Made by a program: the position numbers. Of a stretch of DNA of 8,950 bases, positions 3,001-6,000 are shown one piece after another (the stretch's first letter is position 1; each line of letters opens with the position of its first letter). The DNA is from a virus (taxonomy: Duplodnaviria; Heunggongvirae; Uroviricota; Caudoviricetes): positions 1 through 8,950 of the IMG/VR virus record IMGVR_UViG_2534681939_000020; one strand, 5' to 3'.

Positions 3001-6000
3001 AACCAATGTATACATACCTGATTCGCTCACAATGCTTAGATTCTGCTCACCACCAAGGGTGTAACTTAAAGTTACTCCCTTTTCATCGTCATCAAGTGCA
3101 GTAAGCGCCTTGCGTGAGTTAGTCAAAGCTAAAGCATCACAAACATCTTTAGCTACAAACCACGGCTCACCGCACTTGTTGATGACGCGGATTTCACTGT
3201 CGCCGAATTTGAAGATAGTGAAATCGTTTTGTGCCTTTGCTATACTTTTCATGTCAATATTTCCTAAGCCGATTTGTTGATAACGAAGCCCTGACTGTTA
3301 CAGCAGTTGGGGCTTCAACTTTCTGCTCTATCAGTTATATCTTTCCCTTCGTACACTTCACCTATATTGCTAATGCTGGCAGAACATCCAAGATACTTGT
3401 ATCTTATGATGTCAAACACGCAGTCACTACACAGCATCCGACCTGTTTCTTTAGAGTAAATGTATGTTTGATCAGCGTCTGATTCGCTAATGCCGCAAAA
3501 AACAACATTCTTTACTCATACCGTTATCCCCTCTCTCTTCAGGCTGTCCAGCAATCGCTTAATCACTTGCGTATTTTCATGAAAGGAGATCACTCAATAA
3601 CTTCCATCGAGATCGGGTAATAACATTTGAACAGATCGCTGAATAACATCGATGGAGATCACTTTTGACTCATTTTGTTATTCAGTGATCTCCATCAATG
3701 TTATTGGAACTTCACAGGTGTGTTGATCTGTATCTTTTGCCATTCCGGTAAAGGATACCTATGCCAACAGTTCCAATTTCTATGAGAAAACTTAAAGAAA
3801 TTCTTAGGCTTAAATACGGTGTTGGACTCAGCCATCGACAAATTGGTCGTAGTCTTGCAATCTCCCCTTCCGTTGTATCCAGATATGCTAATCGGGCGGC
3901 TCAACTTGGCATAAAGCAGTGGCCCTTACCTACAGGATGGGATGATACAAAACTAAAACATGCGTTCCTTCAGACCCAGGTTAAGATGAAGAAGCACTCT
4001 CTGCCTGACTGGGCTACAGTACACCGGGAACTGCGTAATAAATGCGTGACGCTGCAGCTACTCTGGGAAGAATACTGTGAGCGTAATCCAGGCGGTTTTT
4101 ACAGCTATAACCATTACTGCCGGATGTACCGTGAATGGCTCAAAACCACTTCACCATCAATGCGTCAGGTACATAAAGCTGGCGAAAAACTTTTCGTTGG
4201 ATTGGACACCGTCAGTGACGGGCGGGCACTGCTGCCCTTCCCGTTCATCTCAAAACCGCTGCCGTCAATCGGGTATGCCTGATATTCCCGCCCCTGCCAG
4301 GTAACCGCCTCCCCTTTTTCATTCAGCTCATTGCAGAAAAAATACCGCTCACCACCCTGCACCGTCAGGTCGATTTCCCAGAGCACCACCCGCGGTGACT
4401 GCTCTGATTTAACCGACTCGTTCAGGCTTTCTTCATGAATATTCTGCATCAGTTCACCACCTGCTCAATCGTACAGCTGAAATCACTGTACCGGGCGTTA
4501 TCCGTGACGCTCCACTCCCGGCACACCACCCTCACCGTCCGGTTATGTTTCGGCGGTCGCCACAAAAAGGCACGGTAACCACCATGCCAGGATAAAAATT
4601 CATCCAGCCAGCGCCGGGTTGACTCATCCGTCACCCGGAACACCGCCTGAAACGTCTTCAGTTGAGGATTCAGCCCTGTGGGGCGGCGCTGTTCATAACC
4701 GTCACCAAACCGCACCCTCACCACCGACGGCTCCTCACTCACCTGCATCCCTTCACGCGGGACCAGATGCAGCGTTTTTATCTCAGCCACTCAGCATTCC
4801 TCCGTCACGTCGCATGGACAGCATCACCGCCTGCACCCGCTGGTCAATCAGCTGCACAAGACTGCCTGCCGCCTCCGGCCCTATCTGTCCGTTAGCCCCG
4901 TCATTCTGAATGGCGATGTGGTAGACCGGGGAATACACCAGACCAGCACTGCCGTTCATACTGCCCACCGCGCGTACGCCCAGCGAGCCATCCGCCGCCC
5001 GGGTCAGGGGCATAATGGCTTCAGGTCCGGCTTCCCCCATCAGCCCGGCCCCTTTTGCAAACGCAAAGTACGTGGGCGTGTCCACAATGCTGTTGCTGTA
5101 CGCGCTCAGGTTTGCCGAGGTATACACGCCGCCTTTTGCATTGGCCACCGCTCCGCCCAGCCAGTCACCAATGCTGCCGAGAAATCCTCCCGACACCGGA
5201 CATACCGTTTGCCGCCGTCTTAATTCCGTTGACAATCGCGGCATTCATAAGAACTTTTGATATTTCCTGCAGCACTGATGAGGCCCAGCTGCGCCATTCC
5301 ACTTTATTTCCGTTCAGCATCTCCGTGATGTTATTCACCATCCCTGAGATACCCTCCGTCGCAAGCTGTGCTGCCTGTGAGGCGTAATCGGACGCATTAT
5401 CCACCCAGTTACTGAATCCCTCCTGCAGCCCTTTCTGCCAGTCCGCACGCTGCGCATCCGATTCGGCATAAAAAGTTTCCTGGTCTTTAAGGCGTTCACT
5501 CAGATACTGCGCGTTCTGTGCCAGAGCCTGTCTGTAAAAATCCTCACTGATATCCCCGGTCTGATACTGAGACTGAAGGTCCGCATCCTTCTGGCGGAAG
5601 CTGTCGCGGATCTGCTGCAACTCCCGCATGCGTTCTCTGGCTCGCTCCCCCTGCCCGTACCCCAGCAGTTCAGCATCATTCGACGCACGCGCAGCCGCAT
5701 TCTCATTCTTCAGTGTCTCTTCCCGGGATCGCAACTGTTCCCGGATTTTTTGCTGGTCAATCAGGGTCGCGTTACGCAGCAGTTCCTGCTTCTGCATCTC
5801 CGTCAGGGTTTTCGGTTCACCCAGCGCTGTCTGGTATTTCAGCTTCGCCAGCTCTGTATTCTGCCCCACCAGTGCCAGTTGCTCTTTCTGCTGCTTCAGC
5901 AGCCGGGAAAAACTGTCTTCCGCTTTTTCCGTCTCTGATTTTCCACCCCGGGATTTGGGTTTATTCGCCTCGTTATTGCGCCAGGCTTCCAGGGCATTAC

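What the first reader, a model, noticed from the sequence alone, without database searches (positions are those of the whole stretch)
4150..4260. L is cut at codon 83 and fused head to head with a truncated IS21-family element
L similarity (minus strand) ends at 4201 and IstA similarity (plus strand) ends at 4198, right before the expected first catalytic Asp (AGEKLFV|D). Both genes are truncated at the same point, which fits an IS insertion followed by an adjacent deletion that removed the IS 3' part and L codons 84 onward. Without the tail tip protein L the prophage should not build tails, so it looks defective.
Basis: partly seen in the sequence, partly recalled or inferred. Interest (0 to 1): 0.6.

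Follow-up and report, generated by a model that had tools for sequence, protein, structure and literature searches.

The report
Broken IS fused to broken tail gene
A lambda-like prophage of E. coli O157 carries a dead stub of the insertion sequence ISEc12 joined directly to the first 83 codons of tail gene L; this is an ordinary prophage decay scar that is already flagged as two pseudogenes in the public annotation.

Summary
Window 3568-4199 is the first 632 bp of ISEc12 (IS21 family, 2581 bp), giving IstA codons 1-146. Window 4200-4449 on the minus strand is L codons 1-83. The two meet at 4199|4200 with no filler and no microhomology. IstA stops one residue before D147, which aligns with the catalytic D124 of the solved IS5376 IstA.

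The IS did not land in or next to L. It landed in arc, part of a P22 immI-like module (ant-sar-arc-mnt) between K and L that is intact in O55:H7 USDA5905, O157:H7 LSU61 and a second prophage of strain 493/89. A later deletion of about 2.9 kb removed 1949 bp of IS, the arc 5' part, the operator region, mnt and L codons 84-232.

The junction is real. It occurs in three non-identical sequences but in only 1 of 5426 complete E. coli genomes.

The prophage cannot make gpL itself, but the same genome has an intact L whose first 83 residues are identical, so supply in trans is plausible.

Ordinary finding, low interest.

The parts
2374..3252 (-). ant: antirepressor gene of the immI-like module, intact
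   Evidence: Pfam Bro-N (7.8e-20) and P22_AR_C (3.2e-29). Annotated as Ant / P22AR C-terminal domain protein in relatives.
3218..3246 (+). Psar-like sigma-70 promoter (GTGAAA-17-TATACT with TG)
   Evidence: The only promoter-like site found in 3150-4500. Its -10 element ends 7 nt before the sar match.
3254..3320 (+). sar antisense RNA, complementary to the ant leader and ribosome-binding site
   Evidence: Rfam RF00262, 66.7 bits against a gathering score of 43, E 1.8e-12, full-length model match.
3516..3567 (-). arc remnant: last 52 nt (16 codons plus stop) of a 50-codon Arc-family gene
   Evidence: Collinear with L003 4640-4691, where the intact arc is annotated at 4640-4792 and matches Pfam Arc at 3.1e-11. 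Phage homology stops at 3567.
3563..3567 (.). TCACT: the inferred 5-bp target site, left copy only; the right copy went with the deletion
   Evidence: ISEc12 makes 5-bp duplications in six complete independent insertions. TCACT is present once at this point in the intact relative L003.
3568..4199 (+). Left 632 bp of ISEc12 (IS21 family): IRL starting TGCGTATT, then repeated GGAGATCACT motifs at about 3578-3594, 3647-3663 and 3684-3705
   Evidence: 100% identical to complete 2581-bp ISEc12 copies. Inverted and direct repeats mapped on L002.
3761..4198 (+). istA codons 1-146 (the tandem HTH DNA-binding part, no DDE residue). The ORF reads on into antisense L for 27 more codons, to a stop at 4282.
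   Evidence: The rve domain of full IstA starts at residue 139. D147 aligns with D124 of 8q4d.
4199..4200 (.). Deletion junction: IS nt 632 joined to the first base of L codon 84
   Evidence: Three-way comparison of window, ISEc12 and intact L: CGTTG|GATTGG. GATT occurs on both parental sides but one base out of register, so there is no usable microhomology.
4201..4449 (-). L codons 1-83 (half of the HDI beta-sandwich domain; the Fe-S domain is missing). The ORF runs on for 11 foreign codons to a stop at 4165.
   Evidence: Pfam Phage_tail_L positions 3-61 of 206. 83/83 identity to the intact 232-aa L. gpL domains and Cys173/182/205/212 from PMC10721106.
4449..4790 (-). M: minor tail protein gene, intact, overlapping the L start
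   Evidence: Pfam Phage_min_tail 4.4e-29. Same protein accession in both 493/89 prophages.

Best explanation
This is a two-step decay scar in a lambdoid prophage that carries T3SS effector genes. Step 1 (shown by the canonical left junction): a complete 2581-bp ISEc12 transposed into arc, the small repressor gene of a P22 immI-like module (ant, sar, arc, mnt) lying between tail genes K and L. Its left end faced ant and istA pointed towards L. That insertion already cut ant off from its promoter Pant. Step 2 (inferred from what is missing): a single illegitimate deletion of about 2884 bp, with no transposase signature, joined IS nucleotide 632 to the first base of L codon 84. It removed 1949 bp of IS (IstA from D147 on, istB and the right end), the right target-site copy, the arc 5' part, the 109-bp arc-mnt control region, mnt, and L codons 84-232. 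What remains is an IS stub that cannot move (no catalytic domain, no IstB, one end only), an 83-residue gpL fragment lacking half of the HDI domain and all of the Fe-S domain, and an ant gene with its sar antisense RNA but without promoter or repressors. The prophage cannot supply gpL for its own tail tip, so any tails would need L from a sister prophage.
For: Both flanks are collinear with intact relatives. Window 1-3567 matches L003 1124-4691 and window 4200-8587 matches L003 5622-10001. L003 4692-5621 is absent from the window and encodes the arc 5' part, mnt and the L 3' part. LSU61 (L004) and a second prophage of 493/89 (L005) show the same intact layout. The IS left end is canonical: TG terminus, IRL matching IRR, 2581 bp and 5-bp duplications in six complete copies. 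The IS breakpoint is internal at nt 632. IstA 1-146 and L 1-83 are 100% identical to the full-length proteins. D147 aligns with catalytic D124. sar is detected at 66.7 bits. Three non-identical sequences share both junctions: the window, the 493/89 RefSeq chromosome (24 substitutions and 5 indels apart), and IMG/VR contig UViG_2529293069_000015 (identical over 3229-4302, then 77 differing positions).
Against: No genome with the predicted intermediate (complete ISEc12 in arc) exists among 5426 complete E. coli genomes, so the order of events is inferred and not observed. The absence of microhomology leaves the mechanism of step 2 open. Expression of ant, of the IstA stub and of the L stub was not measured; the lack of a minus-strand promoter match is weak evidence. 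Reads could not be inspected.
Confidence: 0.9

Rival explanations
1. Assembly chimera: the junction joins reads from an ISEc12 copy and from one of the many near-identical L genes, and does not exist in the cell.
For: O157 genomes hold about nine L-like copies. About half of the window's substitutions relative to 493/89 match a paralogous prophage, the pattern that collapsed repeats can produce.
Against: The same junction and the same left IS junction occur in three non-identical sequences, one of them a closed RefSeq chromosome. The 493/89 chromosome has no other copy of the ISEc12 left part from which a chimera could be built (one place in the record).
Confidence: 0.02
2. Classical IS-mediated adjacent deletion, or a one-step aberrant transposition: ISEc12 inserted in or next to L, and its own transposase deleted the neighbouring DNA.
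Against: Transposase-made deletions start exactly at an IS end and leave the IS whole. Here the breakpoint is at internal nt 632 and the right end is gone. The preserved IS end lies in arc, 930 bp of phage DNA away from the L breakpoint.
Confidence: 0.03
3. The scar arose in a different prophage or strain and reached this prophage by homologous recombination between near-identical tail modules. Alternatively, step 2 was caused by a second, now vanished element, for example excision of an IS629-type element with flanking loss (a mechanism recalled from the O157 literature, not tested here).
For: The tail modules of the two 493/89 prophages are 96-98% identical. SNP patches around the junction are mosaic between copies, so exchange between prophages does happen. 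A junction without microhomology fits a nuclease or excision event.
Against: No other copy of the scar exists in 5426 complete genomes. No trace of a second element remains at the junction. This rival changes the history but not what the feature is.
Confidence: 0.1

Closest known systems
ISEc12 (IS21 family; istA-istB, 2581 bp, TG...CA ends, 5-bp target duplication)
   Same: Window 3568-4199 is 100% identical to the first 632 bp of complete ISEc12 copies. It includes the IRL, the repeated GGAGATCACT motifs and istA codons 1-146.
   Different: Only 24% of the element is present. There is no DDE domain, beta-barrel, istB, right end or second target-site copy. It is a fossil, not a mobile element.
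Bacteriophage lambda gpL (tail tip hub protein, Pfam PF05100, C-terminal [4Fe-4S] domain)
   Same: Codons 1-83 are identical to a 232-aa gpL homologue found in sister prophages. The gene sits after M in the order H-M-L-K-I-J.
   Different: It lacks residues 84-232, that is half of the HDI domain (1-166) and the whole iron-binding domain with Cys173/182/205/212 (PMC10721106).
Phage P22 immI region (mnt, arc, ant, sar)
   Same: ant (Bro-N plus P22_AR_C), a full-length sar match directly upstream of ant on the opposite strand, two Arc-family genes arranged divergently in intact relatives, and placement in the late region. Stx phages such as 1717, YYZ-2008 and 2851 also carry ant, with an Arc-like repressor annotated in 2851 and vB_EcoS_phi330, next to L.
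   Different: In this window mnt, the control region and two thirds of arc are deleted. The module lies between L and K of a lambda-type tail cluster, not beside a P22 tailspike gene. The arc-ant spacer is 263 bp.
Defective prophage pool of E. coli O157 (Asadulghani et al. 2009, PMC2669165)
   Same: A lambdoid prophage carrying T3SS effector genes and damaged by an IS and a deletion, in a genome full of near-identical prophages able to supply virion proteins.
   Different: No induction, packaging or transfer data exist for this prophage. This particular scar was found in only one of 5426 complete genomes.

Membership tests
IS21 family / ISEc12 | DDE transposase IstA with a complete catalytic triad | tested here: not met
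   IstA ends at V146. D147, which aligns with catalytic D124 of IS5376 IstA, and everything after it are absent.
IS21 family / ISEc12 | Helper AAA+ ATPase gene istB downstream of istA | tested here: not met
   No istB sequence in the window. The ISEc12 match ends at nt 632. Complete copies carry istB.
IS21 family / ISEc12 | Two terminal inverted repeats (5'-TG...CA-3') with internal multiple repeats | tested here: not met
   IRL and its repeats are present at 3568 onwards. IRR is absent from the window.
IS21 family / ISEc12 | Nucleotide identity to the reference element | tested here: met
   632/632 identical to complete ISEc12 copies annotated 'IS21-like element ISEc12 family'.
IS21 family / ISEc12 | Flanking direct target duplication (5 bp for ISEc12) | not testable with these tools
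   The right flank was lost in the deletion. Only the left TCACT remains.
Lambda gpL (PF05100) | Full-length HDI domain plus C-terminal four-Cys Fe-S domain | tested here: not met
   Only profile positions 3-61 of 206 are matched. Residues 84-232, including all four cluster cysteines, are missing.
Lambda gpL (PF05100) | Sequence homology and synteny (after M, before K) | tested here: met
   Pfam E 6.2e-22, 83/83 identity to intact L, start codon overlapping the M stop.
P22 immI-type module | Antirepressor gene with a sar antisense RNA across its leader | tested here: met
   ant domains. sar RF00262 at 66.7 bits at 3254-3320, abutting the ant start at 3252.
P22 immI-type module | arc and mnt repressor genes with a divergent control region | tested here: not met
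   Only the last 52 nt of arc remain and mnt is absent. Both genes are intact in L003, L004 and L005.

The most novel reading that the evidence does not exclude
The stub is not inert. The 173-codon ORF (IstA HTH-1/HTH-2 plus a 27-residue tail) might be kept as a DNA-binding protein. Alternatively, loss of Pant, arc and mnt might have been selected because it permanently silences the antirepressor and so locks an effector-carrying prophage (espM2, espW, nleG) in the chromosome.
Probability: 0.04. Interest if true: 0.35.

Novelty: already known. Interest (0 to 1): 0.08.

Why it matters
It matters little beyond annotation. It shows how one effector-carrying prophage of the sorbitol-fermenting O157 lineage lost the ability to build its own tails, and at the same time lost the control region of its antirepressor. 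It also provides a junction that occurs in only 1 of 5426 complete E. coli genomes, which could serve as a lineage PCR marker. For anyone annotating this genome, the K-L gap should be described as a disrupted immI module (ant, sar, arc remnant) rather than as 'IS next to L'.

Tried and rejected
(1) ISEc12 target preference. The window and L002 share AATCACT just left of the IS, and top BLAST hits seemed to extend into the flank.
(2) Microhomology at the deletion junction. GATT is present on both parental sides but one base out of register, so there is no usable overlap.
(3) Pre-deletion intermediate. A synthetic query of the ISEc12 right end plus arc found no genome covering the joint.
(4) Relocated copy of the deleted DNA. 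The 929-bp deleted phage segment does occur elsewhere in 493/89 at 99.9% identity, but inside a normal second prophage (Sp6-like, nleL cargo) with no IS beside it. It is a paralogue, not the reciprocal product.
(5) Other ISEc12 copies in 493/89. None carries the left part in the chromosome. The strain's plasmid records and isolated right-end fragments were not checked.
(6) The IRL pattern in the GTDB species representatives and the junction pattern in metagenome contigs both gave no hits.
(7) Literature searches for a description of this scar in 493/89 found none.

Full report
WHAT THE WINDOW IS. The 8950-bp window is the tail-gene region of a lambdoid prophage, with the phage genes on the minus strand. 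Running from high to low coordinates it holds the tail assembly chaperone genes, the tape measure gene H, M, a truncated L, an IS fragment, an antirepressor module, K, I and the start of J. It is 99.7% identical to E. coli O157 strain 493/89 (NZ_CP038412.1, about 1.29 Mb). It is not the same sequence: the two differ by 24 substitutions and 5 single-base indels. In that record the prophage runs from an integrase through exo/bet/gam, cI/cro/cII, O/P, Q, lysis, head and tail genes to the effector cargo espW, espM2 and nleG-type genes.

CHECK OF THE OBSERVATION. Window 3761-4198 encodes residues 1-146 of the 513-aa ISEc12 IstA, with 146/146 identity. The minus strand of 4201-4449 encodes residues 1-83 of a 232-aa gpL homologue, with 83/83 identity. 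At DNA level the ISEc12 match runs ungapped from 3568 to 4199, and homology to the intact L starts at 4200. The join reads CGTTG|GATTGG. GATT stands at both parental breakpoints but one base out of register, so the join has no usable microhomology and no filler. ISEc12 IstA D147 aligns with D124 of IS5376 IstA (PDB 8q4d), and D124/D187/E233 form that enzyme's catalytic triad (PMC10122671). PGAP annotates the same two partial genes at the same positions in 493/89.

The IS left end is canonical. TGCGTATT... begins at 3568 and is mirrored by the right end of complete copies. Six complete independent insertions give a length of 2581 bp and a 5-bp target duplication. The DNA to its left is not L. 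In O55:H7 USDA5905 (L003), O157:H7 LSU61 (L004) and a second prophage of 493/89 itself (L005), the interval between K and L holds four elements. These are ant (Bro-N plus P22_AR_C domains), a 50-codon Arc-family gene, a divergent 84-codon Arc/Mnt-like gene, and then L. Rfam detects a full-length sar antisense RNA at window 3254-3320, directly abutting the ant start codon (66.7 bits against a gathering score of 43). The only promoter-like site in the region lies just upstream of it. This is therefore a P22 immI-type module. Similar ant genes next to L, with an Arc-like repressor annotated in some records, occur in deposited Stx phages such as 1717, YYZ-2008 and 2851. Phage homology stops at window 3567, which corresponds to L003 4691, inside arc. 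Only the last 52 nt of arc survive, at 3516-3567.

RECONSTRUCTION. Step 1: a complete ISEc12 inserted into arc at TCACT, with istA pointing towards L. Step 2: one deletion joined IS nt 632 to the first base of L codon 84. The deletion removed:
- 1949 bp of IS;
- the 5-bp right target-site copy;
- 930 bp of phage DNA (L003 4692-5621), made up of arc nt 1-101, the 109-bp arc-mnt intergenic control region, mnt, a 16-bp spacer, and L codons 84-232.
The total is about 2884 bp. The IS breakpoint is internal, so this is not a transposase-made adjacent deletion. It is an illegitimate deletion of unknown cause. The intermediate was not found: no genome among 5426 has the ISEc12 right end joined to arc.

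IS IT REAL? Both junctions occur in three non-identical sequences. These are the window, the closed 493/89 chromosome, and IMG/VR contig UViG_2529293069_000015. The last is identical to the window over 3229-4302 and then differs at 77 positions in mosaic patches. The 493/89 chromosome has no other copy of the ISEc12 left part that could seed a chimera. The scar occurs in 1 of 5426 complete E. coli genomes and in no metagenome contig. Reads could not be inspected.

CONSEQUENCES (INFERRED).
- The IS stub keeps the IstA part that corresponds to the tandem HTH DNA-binding domains (HTH-1 1-39, HTH-2 55-104 and the DDE domain from 120 in IS5376 IstA). It lacks every catalytic residue, IstB and one end, so it cannot move.
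[quoted passage not shown] It has none of the iron-binding domain with Cys173/182/205/212 (PMC10721106). The prophage therefore cannot supply the hub protein of its own tail tip.
- ant and sar are intact, but ant has lost Pant and both of its repressors. No minus-strand promoter match lies upstream of it (weak evidence), so it is probably silent.
- 'Defective' is supported independently: in 493/89 the same prophage has a frameshifted Q antiterminator and a broken portal gene.
- 'No tails' needs a caveat. The Sp6-like sister prophage in the same genome encodes an intact L whose first 83 residues are identical, and an identical M. About nine L-like places exist in the chromosome. Defective O157 prophages have been shown to be packaged and transferred with help from one another (PMC2669165).

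COMPARISON AND NOVELTY. Every component belongs to a well-known family: ISEc12/IS21, lambda gpL and P22 immI. IS insertion followed by deletion is the standard route of prophage decay in O157. Both pseudogenes are already flagged in RefSeq. I found no paper describing this particular scar, but nothing about it is mechanistically new. The least ordinary reading still open is that the HTH-only IstA stub, or the loss of antirepressor control, is functional or selected. No evidence supports this. The stub has no other ISEc12 left end to act on in that chromosome.

VERDICT. It is an ordinary, already annotated feature of low interest.

Noticed in passing
window 3218-3320 (+): A full-length sar antisense RNA (RF00262, 66.7 bits) lies directly upstream of ant, with a Psar-like promoter in front of it. 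This shows that the K-L gap holds a P22 immI-type module. sar is not annotated in the 493/89 record.
   Followed up: yes
window 1825, 5193, 6264, 7532, 8201: Five single-base indels are private to the window. They are absent from 493/89, USDA5905, LSU61 and the sister prophage, and the two that lie within the stretch covered by the IMG/VR contig (5193 and 6264) are absent there too. They frameshift K, break the tape measure gene in three places and frameshift the T/G chaperone region. They may be sequencing errors or further decay; this is undecided.
   Followed up: partly
window 4-316, 4969-5017, 7612-7759: About half of the 24 substitutions between the window and the 493/89 record carry the base found in the paralogous Sp6-like prophage of the same genome (L005). 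This suggests gene conversion between prophages or a collapsed-repeat consensus.
   Followed up: partly
L014 (IMGVR_UViG_2529293069_000015), matches window 3229-7461: A third sequence carries both junctions. It is identical to the window over 3229-4302 and then shows clustered SNP patches and a 7-bp deletion in M/H, which looks like mosaic recombination around a shared scar.
   Followed up: partly
L007 20327-20949 and 32936-34512; L001 19617-20784: In 493/89 the same prophage has a frameshifted Q antiterminator and a frameshifted, incomplete portal gene. The portal gene is followed by about 1.2 kb without annotation that contains internally repeated segments.
   Followed up: no
L005 (493/89, 2.33-2.35 Mb): A sister prophage with nleL cargo carries the intact L-mnt-arc-ant-K block at 99.9% identity to the O55:H7 version, but its tape measure gene is annotated as frameshifted.
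   Followed up: no
window 3321-3515: The spacer between the arc stop and sar/ant is 263 bp in total. It contains an unannotated 40-codon minus-strand ORF at 3315-3437. Its function, if any, was not examined.
   Followed up: no
L002, L008-L011, L013: Six independent complete ISEc12 copies are all exactly 2581 bp with 5-bp target duplications. Their insertion sites, plus that of a seventh copy (L012) whose right end was not found, share no consensus. The insertions lie in a P2 capsid gene, DUF932, a phosphoethanolamine transferase gene, a tape measure gene, a tail fibre assembly gene and repB.
   Followed up: yes
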